DNA from: Promethearchaeota archaeon
Lineage (GTDB): Archaea; Asgardarchaeota; Lokiarchaeia; Sigyniarchaeales; SOKP01
Direction of reading: 5' to 3'
Length of the DNA: 32,000 bases
NCBI GenBank assembly: GCA_030606485.1
Contig: JAUWGH010000003.1
Coordinates: forward strand, 120,001-152,000
A program made the position numbers and the translations under genes. This document shows, one piece after another, positions 16 through 4,212 of the stretch (within the stretch, counting starts at the first letter, position 1; the number at the start of each line of letters is the position of its first letter). Under the pieces are notes generated by a model, which saw only the letters and a list, made by a program, of their open reading frames with translations, did no database searches and was not told where the DNA came from.

Positions 16-3000
16 ATGCAACAAAACCTTTATATAGAAAAAGTTCGCATATTATATACGACAATAATTATTAAATTTTATTTATTTAATTTCTATTTTA
101 AAAAATCAAGGGCGATTATCATAAAAGGAAAAAACATATTTTTTATATTGATCTTATTAAATTTCACAATAGTACCATATTGTTATAATAAAGGGATAAT
201 TCTTAATCCAAAAGAACAACCTATAGAACAATCAATTGGAAGTTTAATAAAATTAACAAAGAAATTACAGGATAATTCTTTAAATGAAACATCAGATTTA
301 ATTGAAAATCTTGAAATTAAAGCAATTAATAATCAAACAACTCAAAAGGACCATAATTCTAGAGATCCTTCAAGTTTAACACCAAAAAATGCTTATGCTA
401 TTGTTGTGGGGATTGCAGATTATCCCGGATCTAGTAGCGACTTATCTTATACTGATAATGATGCAAACGATGTATATTCTTTATTAATTAATGATTATAA
501 TTTTAAGCCTGAAAATGTGATATATCTCCAAGATTCAAGCGCTGGAAAGAGCGAAATTAGCAATGCATTTGATCAAATCGCTTCTCAAATAAGCGAGGAT
601 GATATTTTTTTCTTCTATTATTCAGGGCATGGGGGACTTGATCTTGAAGAAGAGGGACCTTTTTCATGGGATGCAGAAACCCCTCATTCTTATTCAAATA
701 ATTATGATCATACATGGAGTGTCTCACACCCAGGAGCTATATATATGAGAGTTCATTTTTATCGATTTGACTGTGAATACTATTGGGATTATGCTTTATG
801 TGGTGATTCAGATGTGGCTTCAGGATGGTATTATGAAATGTACTCTGGAGATTATGGATATAATTTTTGGTCGGCGTATATTCCTGTAAATGAATATTAT
901 ATAAGATTTAAATCCGATGATTCAATTACTGATTATGGTTTTAAAATTGATTCATATGAAGCTTTACTTCCTAATGGTACTCATTATTTATGCTCATATG
1001 ACTGTATTCCTGATAATCCAGATAATTATTATTTAGATACATTACTTGACTCAAAATTAGATAATTTTAATTGTGCCGAAAAATATATTGTAATGGATTC
1101 ATGCTTTAGTGGGGGGATGATCCCAGAGGTTGAAGATATCGGAAGGTATATAATGTCAGCATGTGATGATAATGAGTCAAGTTTAGAGTCACCATCTTTG
1201 CAACATGGAGTTTTTAGTTATTATTTCCTTAGATCGTTAGATTATGCAAACGATGCAAATGAAGATGGAGTGAAATCGATGGAAGAATGTTTTTCATATA
1301 CTTATTCAAATACAGTTTCATATTCAGGATCTTTAGGTTATACACATCATCCACAGGAATATGATGGAATAACGGGAGAATCTGTTTTATATCCTTCATT
1401 TGGCTCTGTTTCTTATAATTTATCTGGTAATGAGTTATCATATAATTTTACGATGTACGGGACTGGTTTAATAGAAGAATTGAATGTTGGAATATGTTTC
1501 GTTTCTCAAGAGATTAATTTTGAAATAGATGATTTATTGGAAAATCCAGCTTCAGAGACAGGATTTGGGAATTATTCAGGAATAATCCAATTAGAAGATA
1601 GTGATAATATTACAAGTTATGGTATTGTTGCTGAAATTAGGGGGAATAATTTAATTAAATTAAATGATACTTTGTTTAATGATACAGATTCTGACGGTCT
1701 TGATGATATATTTGAAATTATGAATGGATTAAATCCAATATTAATGGATACAGATATCGATGGATTGAGTGATGGAGAAGAATATTATGGAGATTCTGAC
1801 CCTTTACTACCAGACACTGATTATGATGGATTATTAGATGGGTTAGAATTAAATGTTTATAATACAGATTTTTTAAATCCAGATACAGATGGAGACGGGA
1901 TTTATGATGGGTATGAGGTTAACTGTTATCTAAATCCTTTAATTAACGATTCATACCTTGATTCTGATAATGATGGGTTAAGCAATTTATTAGAATTTCA
2001 ACTTGGGTCTAATGCAAATAATACTGATTCAGATGGTGATGGTATAACTGATGGATATGAGGTTTTTAATAGTTTAGATTTGTTAAATGATGATGCAGAT
2101 CTTGATTTTGATAATGATGGGTTAATTAATATTTTAGAATTTCAAATAGGGTCGAGTGCAAACAATACTGATTCAGATTTTGACCAAATGCCAGATTTTT
2201 GGGAATACAATAATGGTTTAAATTTAATTTATAACGACGCACAAGCTGACCTTGATAATGATGGGTTAAATAACTATTTAGAATTTCAAATAGGGTCGAG
2301 TGCAAACAACACTGATTCAGATTTTGACCAAATGCCAGATTATTGGGAATATAATAATAATTTAAATTTAACTTATAATGATACACAGCTTGATCCTGAC
2401 AATGATGGATTAATTAATATTGATGAATATCTTTACCAAACAGATCCTCAAGATTATGATACAGATGGTGATTTATATTCAGATGGAATTGAAGTCTTGT
2501 GGGGTACAGATCCATTAAACCCACTCTACTCGCTAAATTCAATTTTTTTAAATTTGGCTGGAATAACATTAATGTGTGTTTTGGGATATTATACTTTCAA
2601 TACAGTTATTAAGAAGAATTTGAAAATTATTGAGAAAGAAAAATTAAATAGAAAGTTTAAGATAAATCAAAATACAATTAATTATAATTCTCTAAGAGTG
2701 GAAACTAAAGTTAAGCCAATTCCCGTAATAACATATAAACAAAGACCTCCTTATTCTCAATATGCTATTCCAAGTACGACTTCAGCATACACCCCTAGCA
2801 CCCCTTATGAACGGATATCAAGTTATGGAATACCTTCTAATTTAGAGTTAAATAAAATGAGAATTATTGCAAGGGATTTCATCCAGAATAAATTACCTCC
2901 ACCAAAACCAAGTTTTTCATCTGATGGACAACGAGCTATGCAAATAGCAATGGCATCTCTTAAATTACTTGCAGAGGGGAGAATTGATGAAAGCATTAAA

Positions 3001-3207
3001 TCTATGATTTTAGCTTTACAATTAGGAGTCCCAGAACCCATAAATAGCCAAATAAAAAGAACTTTATTAAATTTATTAGATCAAAATATTGATAATTCAA
3101 CTATAACCTCAATGGATAAAGTAGTATCCCATAAAAAATGTATGTGGTGCGGAACTTTGAATAAATCTACTAATAATTTTTGTATAAAATGTGGGAGGTC
3201 GTTTTAA
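16..3207 (+). CDS. Type I membrane caspase-like (peptidase C14) protein: signal/TM, C14 domain with CUB-like insert, Asp-rich DxDxDG Ca-binding repeats, TM helix, cytoplasmic Pro/Ser/Thr/Tyr-rich region and C-terminal Zn ribbon; true start probably near 121
   Basis: AIVVGIADY..L.YTDNDA, FFFYYSGHG (His codon 628-630) and IVMDSCFSGG (Cys codon 1102-1104); ETPHSY.NN...W...RVHF..F.....D...F.SD.S....GF CUB-like pattern; many D.D.DGL.D..E...G.DP repeats; TM ~2539-2600; CMWC..CIKC at the end. Confidence 0.85.
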   Translation: MQQNLYIEKVRILYTTIIIKFYLFNFYFKKSRAIIIKGKNIFFILILLNFTIVPYCYNKGIILNPKEQPIEQSIGSLIKLTKKLQDNSLNETSDLIENLEIKAINNQTTQKDHNSRDPSSLTPKNAYAIVVGIADYPGSSSDLSYTDNDANDVYSLLINDYNFKPENVIYLQDSSAGKSEISNAFDQIASQISEDDIFFFYYSGHGGLDLEEEGPFSWDAETPHSYSNNYDHTWSVSHPGAIYMRVHFYRFDCEYYWDYALCGDSDVASGWYYEMYSGDYGYNFWSAYIPVNEYYIRFKSDDSITDYGFKIDSYEALLPNGTHYLCSYDCIPDNPDNYYLDTLLDSKLDNFNCAEKYIVMDSCFSGGMIPEVEDIGRYIMSACDDNESSLESPSLQHGVFSYYFLRSLDYANDANEDGVKSMEECFSYTYSNTVSYSGSLGYTHHPQEYDGITGESVLYPSFGSVSYNLSGNELSYNFTMYGTGLIEELNVGICFVSQEINFEIDDLLENPASETGFGNYSGIIQLEDSDNITSYGIVAEIRGNNLIKLNDTLFNDTDSDGLDDIFEIMNGLNPILMDTDIDGLSDGEEYYGDSDPLLPDTDYDGLLDGLELNVYNTDFLNPDTDGDGIYDGYEVNCYLNPLINDSYLDSDNDGLSNLLEFQLGSNANNTDSDGDGITDGYEVFNSLDLLNDDADLDFDNDGLINILEFQIGSSANNTDSDFDQMPDFWEYNNGLNLIYNDAQADLDNDGLNNYLEFQIGSSANNTDSDFDQMPDYWEYNNNLNLTYNDTQLDPDNDGLINIDEYLYQTDPQDYDTDGDLYSDGIEVLWGTDPLNPLYSLNSIFLNLAGITLMCVLGYYTFNTVIKKNLKIIEKEKLNRKFKINQNTINYNSLRVETKVKPIPVITYKQRPPYSQYAIPSTTSAYTPSTPYERISSYGIPSNLELNKMRIIARDFIQNKLPPPKPSFSSDGQRAMQIAMASLKLLAEGRIDESIKSMILALQLGVPEPINSQIKRTLLNLLDQNIDNSTITSMDKVVSHKKCMWCGTLNKSTNNFCIKCGRSF
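1966..2540 (+). repeat. Intragenic tandem repeat, 144-bp (48-aa) period, about 4 units; the two central units are nearly identical
   Basis: gataatgatggg recurs at 1966, 2110 and 2254, and gacaatgatgga at 2398; unit DNDGL.N.LEFQIGSSANNTDSDFDQMPD.WEYNN.LNL.YND. Confidence 0.9.
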
Positions 3208-3267: not shown

Positions 3268-4212
3268 ATGGAATTTTATGATGTTAAAGAGATATACTTT
3301 CCTAACGTATGTATCATCTGCGGTCAGACAACTAATAACACAATTAGAAGAACTAAACTCGGGTCTTATTCTTATATGACGAATTCGAAAAATGATTATC
3401 AATTCACCTTACCAATATGTGAAAAGTGTAATAATTATCTTAAAATTAAAACAGGAGTTTTTGGTAAAGAAGGCTTCAAAGTCTTATTTTTTTCAATTTT
3501 AGGCTTAATTACATCAATATTGGTAGGATATTTTACATTTTCAATTTTTATCGGTATAGCAATATTTTCACTGTTTTTTATATTTCCATATTTAAATTAT
3601 AGGGCTAAAACACAAAAAAAAATTAGATTAGATCAATTTTTAAAAATTAACATAAAAAAGGACCTTAGAAATACAATACAAATGACATTTGTGAATCAAA
3701 ATTATGCTGATTACATCAATGAGATCAATTTAAAAAAGTATAGGGATATAGATAAATCTAAAGAACTAATAAAATCAACTGCACTTGCACTTGAAACAAA
3801 ATTATCAGATTTTGAAATAAAAGATCATGAAAAATCAACAGATCATAAACTAATTGAGAAAGAGAAAGCCATTGAAATTCAAAATGAGAAACGTGTACAG
3901 GATGAGAGTATATTTGAATTAACATTACCTAAAGAAGAACAAATAATACAAGAGAAAAATTCTGAACAGAATAATTTATCTAATAATGAAAAGATCAAAA
4001 AACAAGTGGATTTACTAGAAAAACCTGTTGAAAAGACTGAATATTCAAGTGAAGACGTTTTGGATCAAAAGATTGAAAAAGAAAAGATGATTTTAACAGA
4101 AATTCCCAAAGACGATGTATTCAAATTAGAAGTCCCAAAAAAAATTGAAGATGAGGGCAAAAAAGATAATAATAATTTAGACGTCAATGAAGAATCTGAA
4201 AAAAAAAAGTAA
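3268..4212 (+). CDS. Hypothetical membrane protein: N-terminal CxxC...CxxC Zn-binding motif, 2 TM helices, long Glu/Lys-rich tail
   Basis: CIICG and CEKC motifs; hydrophobic VLFFSILGLITSILVGYFTFSIFIGIAIFSLFFIFPYL; charged C-terminal half. Confidence 0.75.
   Translation: MEFYDVKEIYFPNVCIICGQTTNNTIRRTKLGSYSYMTNSKNDYQFTLPICEKCNNYLKIKTGVFGKEGFKVLFFSILGLITSILVGYFTFSIFIGIAIFSLFFIFPYLNYRAKTQKKIRLDQFLKINIKKDLRNTIQMTFVNQNYADYINEINLKKYRDIDKSKELIKSTALALETKLSDFEIKDHEKSTDHKLIEKEKAIEIQNEKRVQDESIFELTLPKEEQIIQEKNSEQNNLSNNEKIKKQVDLLEKPVEKTEYSSEDVLDQKIEKEKMILTEIPKDDVFKLEVPKKIEDEGKKDNNNLDVNEESEKKK

What the first reader, a model, noticed from the sequence alone, without database searches (positions are those of the whole stretch)
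16..3207. Receptor-like surface caspase homolog with a CUB-like domain inserted between catalytic His and Cys
His205 and Cys363 are 158 residues apart, far more than the roughly 40-60 typical of caspase-like folds. The gap (~661-975) holds a CUB-like module. Downstream are Ca-binding Asp repeats (stalk), one TM helix, and a cytoplasmic Pro/Tyr-rich, helical and Zn-ribbon tail. Inference: an extracellular C14 protease gated by a ligand-binding module and linked to an intracellular signalling tail, which is unusual for a typically cytosolic family.
Basis: partly seen in the sequence, partly recalled or inferred. Interest (0 to 1): 0.7.

Follow-up and report, generated by a model that had tools for sequence, protein, structure and literature searches.

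The report
Asgard surface metacaspase with nested CUB
This Asgard-archaeal gene encodes a membrane-anchored, outward-facing caspase-type protease with a genuine calcium-type CUB domain spliced into its catalytic domain, and it is paired with a small zinc-ribbon membrane protein predicted to clamp its inner tail; the layout is real and undescribed, but what it cuts or senses is unknown.

Summary
ORF 16-3207 (1063 aa) has the catalytic His205 and Cys363 158 residues apart. The interval holds a true CUB domain: the profile matches cubilin at 1.9e-32, and the top 50 structural matches of the insert model are all CUB domains. The two protease halves still model as one metacaspase-like fold (Z 25.2, rmsd 2.2 A to Arabidopsis metacaspase 4).

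The CUB sits in loop L3, beside the substrate cleft. It keeps the calcium-site residues Y226, E254, D258 and D301. After the catalytic domain come a beta-sandwich, about ten calcium-binding TSP3 repeats, one membrane helix and a conserved 200-aa cytoplasmic tail ending in a zinc ribbon.

More than 120 Asgard proteins share the module, but its distribution is patchy. Close relatives lack the insert.

New here: the downstream gene (3268-4212) encodes a two-helix zinc-ribbon membrane protein. It co-occurs with a juxtamembrane motif of the tail and is predicted to bind it (score 0.67, best control 0.01).

Extracellular C14 proteases are not unusual in prokaryotes.

The scan had already found this family on other DNA (Promethearchaeum syntrophicum, e1-2537004). 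I found no publication describing it.

The parts
16..3207 (+). Whole gene, 1063 aa: signal anchor, caspase with nested CUB, beta-sandwich, TSP3 stalk, TM helix, cytoplasmic tail
   Evidence: an identical protein is in the public collection (P0002)
112..186 (+). N-terminal signal peptide or signal anchor (aa 33-57), preceded by a Lys/Arg-rich stretch
   Evidence: Hydropathy segment 33-53. Homologues start with classical signal peptides. The exact start codon is uncertain: ATG at 16 here, TTG in the closest relative L002.
394..651 (+). Caspase domain, N-terminal half (aa 127-212), with S1-pocket Asp149 and catalytic His205 (nt 628-630)
   Evidence: PF00656 E 4.5e-14. Aligns to AtMC4 residues 5-89. 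H205 is kept in 63/66 and D149 in 66/66 relatives.
652..981 (+). CUB domain (aa 213-322) inserted in loop L3, directly after His205-Gly206
   Evidence: Profile against PDB: cubilin 1.9e-32, enteropeptidase 2.4e-12. AF2 model pLDDT 96.3. The top 50 Foldseek PDB hits are all CUB domains, TM 0.61-0.76. Ca-site residues: Y226 63/66, E254 59/66, D258 64/66, D301 62/66.
982..1455 (+). Caspase domain, C-terminal half (aa 323-480), with Asp361 and catalytic Cys363 (nt 1102-1104)
   Evidence: PF01650 partial match at 340-427. Aligns to AtMC4 residues 111-151. C363 is kept in 63/66 and D361 in 66/66 relatives. The model spans the insert: Z 25.2, rmsd 2.2 A, 213 residues aligned to 6w8r.
1456..1785 (+). 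Conserved all-beta domain after the protease (aa 481-590)
   Evidence: Strands at model residues 347-438, pLDDT about 90-97. Conserved with the protease in about 150 relatives. Foldseek's best matches are MALT1 caspase-Ig3 constructs.
1786..2520 (+). Stalk of bacterial-type thrombospondin type 3 (Ca-binding) repeats (aa 591-835)
   Evidence: PF18884 E 1.8e-18, 6 stretches; ten DxDxDG-type motifs
2530..2598 (+). Transmembrane helix (aa 839-861), followed by Lys-rich sequence
   Evidence: Hydropathy. Conserved in tails. Predicted to pack against TM2 of the partner.
2647..2715 (+). Juxtamembrane cytoplasmic segment (aa 878-900) with invariant Asn891; predicted docking site of the partner
   Evidence: N62 of alignment A4 is invariant. 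The lowest-error contacts of the predicted complex are tail residues 59-69 with partner residues 8-13 and 41-47. The motif co-occurs with the partner gene in 8 of 8 loci against 0 of 8.
2833..3090 (+). Conserved cytoplasmic domain of unknown fold (aa ~940-1025) with the invariant LGVPEPxN motif
   Evidence: Alignment A4, invariant G142, A145, L172, G175, V176, P177, P179, N181. No Pfam, PDB or Atlas match.
3136..3201 (+). C-terminal Cys4 zinc ribbon (aa 1041-1062)
   Evidence: PF13240 23.5 bits against a cut-off of 25. All four Cys are invariant in 38 tails.
3268..4212 (+). Partner gene, 314 aa: N-terminal CxxC...CxxC zinc ribbon, two-helix membrane hairpin, conserved post-membrane segment, Lys/Glu-rich tail
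   Evidence: Homologue directly downstream of the caspase gene in L002, L004 (34% identity, starts 1 nt after the stop), L006, L007, L008, L010 and L017. No Pfam family. Predicted complex with the tail scores 0.67 against a best control of 0.01.

Best explanation
The gene encodes a cell-surface, type I membrane-anchored cysteine protease of the metacaspase/orthocaspase kind (C14).

Shown:
- The catalytic domain is intact. It keeps the His-Cys dyad and both acidic S1-pocket positions.
- A bona fide CUB domain is inserted in loop L3, immediately after the catalytic His-Gly.
- The CUB keeps the Tyr/Glu/Asp/Asp set that forms the Ca2+ site in animal CUB domains.
- The head is followed by a beta-sandwich, a Ca-binding TSP3 stalk, one membrane helix and a conserved cytoplasmic tail.
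- A co-encoded two-helix zinc-ribbon membrane protein goes with one type of tail.

Inferred:
- The enzyme cleaves after Arg or Lys outside the cell.
- The CUB acts as a Ca2+-dependent capture site (exosite) next to the cleft. Loop L3 contributes to substrate pockets in clan CD enzymes, and Ca-CUB domains typically grip a Lys side chain of their ligand. This would make the enzyme a selective processing protease for particular extracellular or surface proteins rather than a bulk digestive one.
- The partner protein binds the membrane helix and the juxtamembrane strand (aa 887-900) from the cytoplasmic side. It may fix, sort or regulate the enzyme in the membrane.
For: Fold and dyad:
- The AF2 model of residues 115-590 has pLDDT 94.3 and pTM 0.87.
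- It matches AtMC4 and AtMC9 at Z 24-25, rmsd 2.2 A, over model range 11-347, which spans the insert.
- The profile matches AtMC4 in two pieces that flank a cubilin-CUB match.
- H205 and C363 are each kept in 63/66 relatives; D149 and D361 in 66/66.
- D149 aligns with the Asp of the metacaspase GC.ND motif and D361 with the Asp of DSCHSG. These are the TbMCA2 Asp95 and Asp211 S1 positions (PMC4357240).

CUB identity. Ca-site residues. A ligand lysine enters the Ca site of CUB domains (PMC5789954).

L3 is listed among the substrate-pocket regions of clan CD (PMC4357240).

The insertion is discrete:
- Sister proteins with 50-56% identity in the C half have contiguous halves.
- His-Cys spacing is bimodal.

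CUB and caspase keep company in other layouts: CUB before the caspase (P0222, and Heimdall L054), CUB after it (P0205, P0220, P0239), and free tandem CUBs.

Outward topology.

Partner:
- Conserved adjacency down to 34% identity.
- Co-occurrence with the juxtamembrane motif, 8/8 against 0/8 loci.
- Predicted complex ipSAE 0.67, best of 3 controls 0.01. That mark was reached by 58 of 80 solved complexes and 2 of 110 mismatched pairs. The runs agree in at least 87% of contacts, and partner pLDDT is at least 78.
- The interface holds the invariant residues of both proteins and is topologically consistent.
Against: - No activity, substrate, localisation or expression data exist for any member.
- The geometry of the CUB relative to the cleft could not be measured, because model coordinates are not exposed. 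The exosite role rests on the position of L3 alone.
- The gene is patchy: about 10 of 41 genomes sampled in its own family carry the full module, and 0 of 3 other genomes of the same genus. It is therefore accessory, which also fits a nutritional or conflict role.
- Three of 66 relatives have lost His or Cys.
- The N-terminus of this particular copy has a second, weakly hydrophobic stretch (aa 12-28) if translation starts at ATG 16, so its own topology is slightly less certain than the family's.
- Loci sharing the partner are related to each other, so the 8/8 against 0/8 count overstates independence.
- The complex score is a model's confidence, not a measurement, and used my own shallow alignment of 8 partner rows.
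Confidence: 0.5

Rival explanations
1. Transmembrane proteolytic sensor. Ligand binding to the CUB opens or blocks the active site, and the event is passed through the membrane helix to the conserved tail, zinc ribbon and partner protein.
For: - The 200-aa cytoplasmic tail is conserved end to end in more than 90 homologues, with invariant motifs.
- A dedicated partner is predicted to clamp the juxtamembrane strand.
- The CUB sits directly at the catalytic His.
- There is precedent for CUB domains holding a protease latent, in ADAMTS13 (PMC8051872).
Against: - No known signalling domain (kinase, cyclase, HTH, receiver) is present in the tail or partner.
- There is no evidence of gating.
- Single-pass proteins with zinc-ribbon tails are common in Asgard archaea without known signalling (Atlas neighbours).
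- MK-D1-type members have a different, short tail and no partner, so the ectodomain works without this tail.
Confidence: 0.15
2. Bulk nutrient-scavenging exopeptidase. It would be a cell-attached Arg/Lys-specific protease that degrades detrital protein for a peptide-fermenting sediment archaeon, with the CUB serving only as a generic binding module.
For: - Outward topology and an intact active site.
- Habitat is cold-seep and marine-sediment metagenomes in 9 studies.
- The patchy, accessory distribution fits a nutritional gene.
- A heparinase-like membrane protein and a GH172 glycosidase lie upstream, here and in L002.
Against: - The ectodomain is unusually conserved (50-80% identity over 476 aa across Loki, Thor, Hermod and Hod lineages).
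- The conserved tail and partner are hard to explain for a simple digestive enzyme.
- Neighbours differ in the distant locus L004.
Confidence: 0.2
3. Toxin/immunity-like conflict cassette. The caspase domain would be a releasing peptidase, the C-terminal part an effector, and the downstream membrane protein its immunity factor. Earlier notes of this scan propose this for other Asgard caspase-headed gene pairs.
For: - A small membrane-protein gene follows the caspase gene, and the pair is predicted to bind.
- Tail types differ between subfamilies, and the partner follows one tail type.
- Patchy distribution.
Against: - The tail lies on the cytoplasmic side of the membrane helix in the producer (positive-inside rule), so it is not exported.
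- The tail is conserved, not polymorphic, across more than 90 members.
- The predicted interface is the helix and juxtamembrane strand, not a globular effector.
- No toxin-like domain was detected.
Confidence: 0.05
4. Non-catalytic surface adhesin that merely retains a caspase-fold scaffold. The CUB and TSP3 repeats would do the work, in cell-cell or cell-matrix contact.
For: - TSP3 repeats match the Myxococcus adhesion and motility proteins CglD and MtsD.
- CUB domains are protein-binding modules.
- A few relatives have lost the dyad.
Against: The dyad, the Gly next to His and both S1 Asp residues are kept in 63-66 of 66 relatives. This indicates selection for catalysis.
Confidence: 0.05

Closest known systems
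Metacaspases and orthocaspases (MEROPS C14B: AtMC4, AtMC9, Yca1, TbMCA2, bacterial GSU0716)
   Same: - Caspase-hemoglobinase fold: Z 24-25, rmsd 2.2 A, 21-22% identity.
- SGHG and DSCxSGG dyad motifs.
- Acidic S1 positions equivalent to TbMCA2 Asp95 and Asp211.
- Best sequence matches in the PDB.
   Different: - A whole ~105-residue CUB domain replaces the ~20-residue stretch after the catalytic His (AtMC4 residues 90-110).
- Exported and membrane-anchored, with a stalk and cytoplasmic tail.
- No N-terminal prodomain and no type II linker was seen.
Animal Ca2+-binding CUB domains (cubilin, C1r/C1s, MASP-1/2, PCPE-1, enteropeptidase, TSG-6, neuropilin)
   Same: - Jelly-roll fold.
- Profile similarity, E 1.9e-32 to 1e-5.
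- The Tyr/Glu/Asp/Asp calcium-site set is kept.
- Association with an extracellular protease.
   Different: - The canonical disulfide Cys are missing.
- The domain is nested inside a catalytic domain rather than strung beside it.
- The protease is a cysteine protease, not a serine or metallo-protease.
- The host is an archaeon.
MALT1 paracaspase (caspase-Ig3)
   Same: A caspase domain is followed directly by a beta-sandwich domain. It is the best Foldseek match of the whole model (E 1.7e-11) and gives Z 22.8.
   Different: - MALT1 is cytosolic, has no nested domain and is activated by dimerisation.
- Sequence identity is only 16-17%.
- The second-domain match was not verified separately.
Bacterial secreted caspase-domain proteins with Big_7, cadherin-like or InlB-repeat domains (ESM Atlas clusters)
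   Same: They are C14 domains exported together with extracellular beta-sandwich modules. A subset of prokaryotic metacaspases was predicted to be membrane-associated or extracellular in a 2012 survey (PMC3501461).
   Different: Only the caspase part aligns (about 230-270 residues, TM 0.44-0.51). None of the listed clusters has the nested CUB, this tail or the partner.
Legumain and GPI8/PIGK (C13)
   Same: - Clan CD enzymes that act on the non-cytosolic side.
- GPI8 has the same signal peptide, catalytic domain and C-terminal helix layout (from memory).
- The C half gives a partial Pfam C13 match.
- Z 22.6 to legumain.
   Different: - The structural score is lower than to metacaspases.
- Sequence profiles find metacaspases, not C13.
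- The N-terminal S1 motif is the metacaspase type.

Membership tests
Peptidase C14 (caspase/metacaspase; Pfam PF00656) | Pfam model scored above the gathering cut-off | tested here: met
   53.1 bits against 21.4, but only profile positions 3-83 of 233 align because of the insert
Peptidase C14 (caspase/metacaspase; Pfam PF00656) | Caspase-hemoglobinase fold with both halves forming one domain | tested here: met
   AF2 pLDDT 94.3. AtMC4 6w8r gives Z 25.2, rmsd 2.2 A, 213 residues aligned, model range 11-347 across the insert.
Peptidase C14 (caspase/metacaspase; Pfam PF00656) | Catalytic His-Gly and Cys at the ends of strands 3 and 4 | tested here: met
   SGHG with His205 and DSC with Cys363. H is kept in 63/66, G206 in 66/66 and C in 63/66 relatives. 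The His-Cys distance in the model could not be measured.
Peptidase C14 (caspase/metacaspase; Pfam PF00656) | Canonical His-to-Cys interval (about 30-60 residues) | tested here: not met
   158 residues here. Relatives fall at 30-59 or 140-169.
Metacaspase/orthocaspase subfamily (C14B) | Acidic S1 pocket (TbMCA2 Asp95 and Asp211 equivalents) giving Arg/Lys specificity | tested here: met
   D149 and D361 are invariant in 66/66 relatives and align with the AtMC4 motifs. Residue roles are from PMC4357240. Specificity itself was not assayed.
Metacaspase/orthocaspase subfamily (C14B) | Ca2+-dependent activation through the metacaspase Asp cluster | not testable with these tools
   D329 is conserved in 62/66, but equivalence to the TbMCA2 Ca site was not established
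CUB domain (Pfam PF00431) | Pfam model above the gathering cut-off | tested here: inconclusive
   16.6 bits in the whole protein and 21.6 bits against a cut-off of 21.4 for the insert alone. Many homologues carry precomputed PF00431 hits.
CUB domain (Pfam PF00431) | Sequence-profile similarity to solved CUB domains | tested here: met
   Cubilin 1.9e-32 (four domains), enteropeptidase 2.4e-12, PCPE-1 8.7e-12, MASP-2 2.3e-10
CUB domain (Pfam PF00431) | CUB jelly-roll fold | tested here: met
   Insert model pLDDT 96.3. The top 50 Foldseek PDB matches are all CUB domains, TM by query 0.61-0.76.
CUB domain (Pfam PF00431) | Conserved disulfide cysteines of canonical CUB | tested here: not met
   The family consensus has no conserved Cys in the insert. 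C253 of this copy is Cys in only 4/66 relatives.
Ca2+-binding CUB subtype | Tyr/Glu/Asp/Asp calcium-site residues | tested here: met
   Y226 63/66, E254 59/66, D258 64/66, D301 62/66. E and D align with those of cubilin. Metal binding itself is untested.
Bacterial TSP3 repeat (PF18884) | Repeated DxDxDG Ca-binding motif above the cut-off | tested here: met
   66.5 bits against 25, 6 stretches; ten motifs
Zinc ribbon (PF13240) | Two CxxC knuckles | tested here: met
   23.5 bits against a cut-off of 25, just under, but all four Cys are invariant in 38 tails
Legumain/GPI8 (C13, PF01650) | Full-length match and C13-type S1 motif | tested here: inconclusive
   23.3 bits against 22.8, but only profile positions 137-228. 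Structural Z 22.6, below the metacaspases. The profile search of the PDB returns metacaspases, not C13.
Polymorphic toxin with releasing caspase-like peptidase plus immunity gene | Variable exported C-terminal toxin domain with matching immunity protein | tested here: not met
   The tail is conserved in more than 90 members, lies on the cytoplasmic side and has no toxin domain. A partner gene is present.

The most novel reading that the evidence does not exclude
A two-protein transmembrane proteolytic sensor in Asgard archaea. Ca2+-dependent capture of a lysine-bearing ligand by the nested CUB would switch the metacaspase head on or off. The state would be relayed through the membrane helix and juxtamembrane strand to the zinc-ribbon partner and the LGVPEP/zinc-ribbon tail. 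That would be an archaeal counterpart of the CUB-guided protease cascades of animals (C1r/C1s, MASP, tolloid).
Probability: 0.12. Interest if true: 0.85.

Novelty: new variant of a known kind. Interest (0 to 1): 0.6.

Why it matters
- Clan CD proteases are well mapped structurally. I found no description of a complete domain inserted into loop L3 at the catalytic histidine, either in the clan CD review (PMC4357240) or in six literature searches. The variant offers a natural experiment on how an exosite can be grafted onto the caspase fold.
- It places a calcium-type CUB domain, best known as an animal ligand-recognition unit attached to extracellular proteases, next to a protease in the archaeal lineage closest to eukaryotes. 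The same CUB type also occurs in a methanogen protein, so it is not an Asgard-only module.
- The predicted complex with a dedicated zinc-ribbon membrane partner gives a concrete, testable handle on how Asgard surface proteins connect to the cytoplasm.
- A homologue exists in the cultured Promethearchaeum syntrophicum MK-D1. Localisation and substrates could be studied there, although that copy lacks the partner-type tail.

Tried and rejected
- Expression: no RNA holder listed for this gene. I did not lay reads.
- Swapped inserts: I searched 252 relatives for other domains between His and Cys. Spacing is bimodal. The few odd cases (P0207 and P0225 at 131 residues, P0103 at 86) have no Pfam match, and the first two align weakly to the CUB profile (hhalign 64% and 93% probability). 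They are degenerate CUBs, not swaps.
- Tail domain 940-1025: only the zinc ribbon is recognised by Pfam, a profile search of the PDB or the ESM Atlas. The best Atlas score is 0.84, below the trust level.
- Partner protein: no Pfam family. The word-indexed protein search found only its own cluster and one relative, so the partner alignment was built from neighbouring loci instead.
- Literature: six searches for Asgard caspases, orthocaspases, prokaryotic CUB domains and extracellular peptidases of Lokiarchaeota returned nothing on this architecture.
- His-Cys distance and CUB-to-cleft geometry could not be measured, because the tools do not expose model coordinates.
- Housekeeping role: rejected after the phylum survey showed a patchy distribution.
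- GPI8-like transamidase idea: considered because of the shared topology, and set aside because sequence and structure both favour metacaspases.
- One homologue is labelled as bacterial (P0050, Neomarinimicrobiota; 3.9-kb contig, 63% identity). I read it as probable mis-binning, not as evidence of bacterial members.

Full report
**The gene and the observation**

A single open frame runs from 16 to 3207 on the + strand and gives 1063 residues.

Pfam sees the protease in two pieces. Peptidase_C14 aligns only to residues 127-208 (profile positions 3-83 of 233, 53.1 bits). The Cys-bearing half aligns to the related Peptidase_C13 model at 340-427. CUB aligns weakly to 221-311 in between. Scanned alone, the insert just passes the CUB cut-off, 21.6 against 21.4 bits.

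The window lies in a 3.75-Mb, 13-contig Asgard genome. That genome has only this one C14 gene.

**Is the insert really a CUB domain?**

Yes. I aligned 44 copies of the insert and of related free-standing copies (A2). The profile finds cubilin at E 1.9e-32 (four CUB domains), enteropeptidase at 2.4e-12, PCPE-1, MASP-1/2, TSG-6, neuropilins, Kremen, C1s and C1r in the PDB.

An AlphaFold2 model of the insert alone has pLDDT 96.3. Its 50 best Foldseek matches in the PDB are all CUB domains, with TM by query 0.61-0.76.

The family keeps the tyrosine and three acidic residues that align with the calcium site of animal CUB domains: Y226 in 63/66, E254 in 59/66, D258 in 64/66 and D301 in 62/66. The canonical CUB disulfide cysteines are absent.

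In animal CUB domains this calcium site is the ligand site, and a ligand lysine inserts into it (PMC5789954; PMC8051872).

**Is the protease domain still whole?**

Yes, as far as a model can show. With a 66-sequence alignment (A1), residues 115-590 model at pLDDT 94.3 and pTM 0.87.

VIA-align superposes the model on Arabidopsis metacaspases 4 and 9 at Z 24-25, rmsd 2.2 A, over 213 residues. The model range is 11-347, which crosses the insert. MALT1, legumain and caspases follow at Z about 22.

The A1 profile matches AtMC4 in two segments: profile 14-94 to AtMC4 5-89, and profile 220-259 to AtMC4 111-151. It matches cubilin's CUB at profile 104-195. So the CUB replaces the roughly 20 residues that follow the catalytic His-Gly in metacaspases.

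That stretch is loop L3 of the clan CD nomenclature. L3 is among the regions forming the S1-S4 pockets, and TbMCA2 Ser156 and RgpB Gly210/212 lie on it (PMC4357240).

His205 and Cys363 are each kept in 63 of 66 relatives. Gly206, Asp149 and Asp361 are kept in all 66. Asp149 and Asp361 align with the metacaspase GC.ND and DSCHSG aspartates, which are TbMCA2 Asp95 and Asp211. I therefore infer, and have not shown, cleavage after Arg or Lys.

**The insertion is a discrete evolutionary event**

A search of 1.8 billion representative proteins returned four kinds of relative:
- Insert-bearing relatives down to about 30% identity.
- A sister group, 50-56% identical in the C half, whose two halves are contiguous.
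- Proteins made of 3-9 tandem copies of the same CUB type. One is a Methanosarcina protein named only 'PKD domain-containing'.
- Proteins with this CUB after the caspase (P0205, P0220, P0239) or before it (P0222).

A Heimdallarchaeum locus encodes a secreted CUB, PPC-like and caspase protein with normal dyad spacing.

Across 182 dyads the His-Cys spacing is 30-59 residues (59 cases) or 140-169 residues (119 cases). The rare intermediate cases are degenerate CUBs. I found no swapped inserts.

**Rest of the protein and topology**

After the protease comes a conserved all-beta domain (aa 481-590). Then come about ten DxDxDG calcium-binding TSP3 repeats, a hydrophobic helix at 839-861 followed by lysines, and a tail of about 200 residues.

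Homologues begin with classical signal peptides. This copy has a Lys-rich stretch and a hydrophobic segment at 33-53.

Its start codon is uncertain. The closest relative must use a TTG further in. A weakly hydrophobic stretch at residues 12-28 would be translated if ATG 16 is used.

Signal peptide, extracellular-type domains, the positive-inside rule and a Cys4 zinc ribbon at the C-terminus all point to a type I protein with the protease outside. This is inference, not measurement.

**The tail is a conserved module, not just an anchor**

More than 90 homologues align over the whole 234 residues from the helix to the end. Invariant positions include:
- Asn891 in a juxtamembrane YN-x-L-x-V motif.
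- An LGVPEPxN motif.
- The four zinc-ribbon cysteines.

Apart from the zinc ribbon, nothing in Pfam, the PDB or the ESM Atlas resembles it.

The next gene (3268-4212, 314 aa) encodes an N-terminal CxxC...CxxC zinc ribbon, a two-helix membrane hairpin with basic flanks on both sides, a conserved segment after the hairpin, and a Lys/Glu-rich tail. It has no Pfam family.

A homologue lies directly downstream of the caspase gene in seven further loci: L002, L004, L006, L007, L008, L010 and L017. This holds down to 34% identity. In L004 it starts one base after the caspase stop.

All eight loci whose caspase tail has the juxtamembrane motif have the partner. L017 has lost the LGVPEP domain but keeps the motif and the partner. 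None of eight loci without the motif has the partner, the cultured MK-D1 included. These loci are related to each other, so the count is suggestive only.

A complex prediction of tail (A4) with partner (A5) gave ipSAE 0.67 (median of three runs), with a best control of 0.01 among three:
- That mark was reached by 58 of 80 solved complexes and 2 of 110 mismatched pairs.
- The runs share at least 87% of contacts, and the partner's pLDDT is at least 78.
- The alignments were my own, so the calibration holds only roughly.
- No similar complex is known, so the pass is unlikely to come from memory.

In the predicted interface the receptor helix packs against partner TM2. Tail residues 58-71 (P0001 887-900, with the invariant Asn891) lie as a strand against partner residues 6-14, 39-49 and 137-157, which hold that protein's invariant positions. 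The arrangement is topologically consistent, because all of these segments are cytoplasmic. The model supports binding; it does not show it.

**Distribution**

More than 120 proteins at 50-81% identity over the head come from Loki/Promethearchaeota, Thor-, Hermod- and Hodarchaeota. Where named at all, they are called 'caspase family protein'.

Among 201 genomes sampled from the phylum, full-length insert-bearing matches occur in about 10 of 41 genomes of the window's family and one genome of a second family. None occurs in three other genomes of the same genus. Other families show only CUB matches, in proteins of roughly 270-740 residues. The gene is therefore accessory and patchy, not housekeeping.

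Promethearchaeum syntrophicum MK-D1 has a 720-aa member with the same head, stalk, helix and zinc ribbon, but a different short tail and no partner.

The DNA occurs in cold-seep and marine-sediment metagenomes of nine studies.

**What it most likely does**

Shown:
- The architecture.
- The intact catalytic and S1 residues.
- The calcium-type CUB in L3.
- The conserved tail.
- The conserved adjacent partner.

Inferred:
- An extracellular, Ca2+-dependent, Arg/Lys-directed processing protease whose nested CUB captures particular substrates beside the cleft.
- The enzyme is held in the membrane together with the zinc-ribbon partner.

I put this at about 0.5.

**Comparison with what is known, and novelty**

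The protein is a member of family C14 by fold, motifs and Pfam score, and it is closest to metacaspases and orthocaspases. It fails only the canonical dyad spacing.

Extracellular or membrane-bound prokaryotic C14 proteins were already known (PMC3501461).

What appears undescribed is the domain nested in L3, its identity as a calcium-type CUB, the conserved tail and the partner. I found no paper on any of these.

The scan itself had already met the family in MK-D1 (note e1-2537004). My independent look at that locus agrees with that note. Other notes on Asgard caspase-headed gene pairs suggested the toxin/immunity rival, which the evidence here mostly excludes.

I rate it a new variant of a known kind, interest 0.6.

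Noticed in passing
L054:5869-7359 (Heimdallarchaeum endolithica chromosome): A secreted 496-aa protein has the same CUB type at the N-terminus, then a PPC-like domain, then a caspase domain with normal His-Cys spacing. CUB and caspase therefore travel together in Asgard archaea in several arrangements. Many CUB-only matches in ~500-aa proteins of other Asgard families look like this.
   Followed up: partly
P0182 (Methanosarcina sp., 700 aa): This protein carries five tandem copies of the same CUB-type domain and is annotated only as 'PKD domain-containing protein'. The calcium-type CUB module is thus not confined to Asgard archaea.
   Followed up: partly
window 16-130 and L002:5899-6003: The start of the gene is uncertain. 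The window has an ATG at 16 giving a 30-residue extension before the signal sequence. The closest relative has a stop there and only a TTG further in, and public gene calls for it start after the signal peptide, at an internal Met.
   Followed up: partly
L001:7205-10582 (-) and L001:10709-11902 (+), just upstream of the window: A 1125-aa multi-pass membrane protein with heparinase II/III-like domains and a GH172/DUF2961 protein lie upstream. The same two genes precede the caspase gene in the related locus L002, but not in the distant L004.
   Followed up: no
window 2126-2386 (-): An 86-aa reverse-strand ORF lies inside the TSP3 repeat region. Its repetitive translation looks like a shadow of the near-identical repeat units on the + strand, not a gene.
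   Followed up: no
L004:9268-10035 and L006:4961-5782: Some partner proteins end in an extra Cys4 zinc ribbon of the same type as the one at the end of the caspase protein. The window's partner instead has a long Lys/Glu-rich tail.
   Followed up: no
P0053, P0061, P0064, P0072, P0074, P0123-P0127 (1600-3300 aa): Giant relatives carry the same caspase-CUB head in the middle of the protein, behind long N-terminal regions (SBBP repeats, beta-helix). The head is thus reused as a cassette in much larger surface proteins.
   Followed up: no
P0050 (contig of 3.9 kb): One 63%-identical family member is labelled 'Candidatus Neomarinimicrobiota bacterium'. This is probably a mis-binned Asgard contig.
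   Followed up: no
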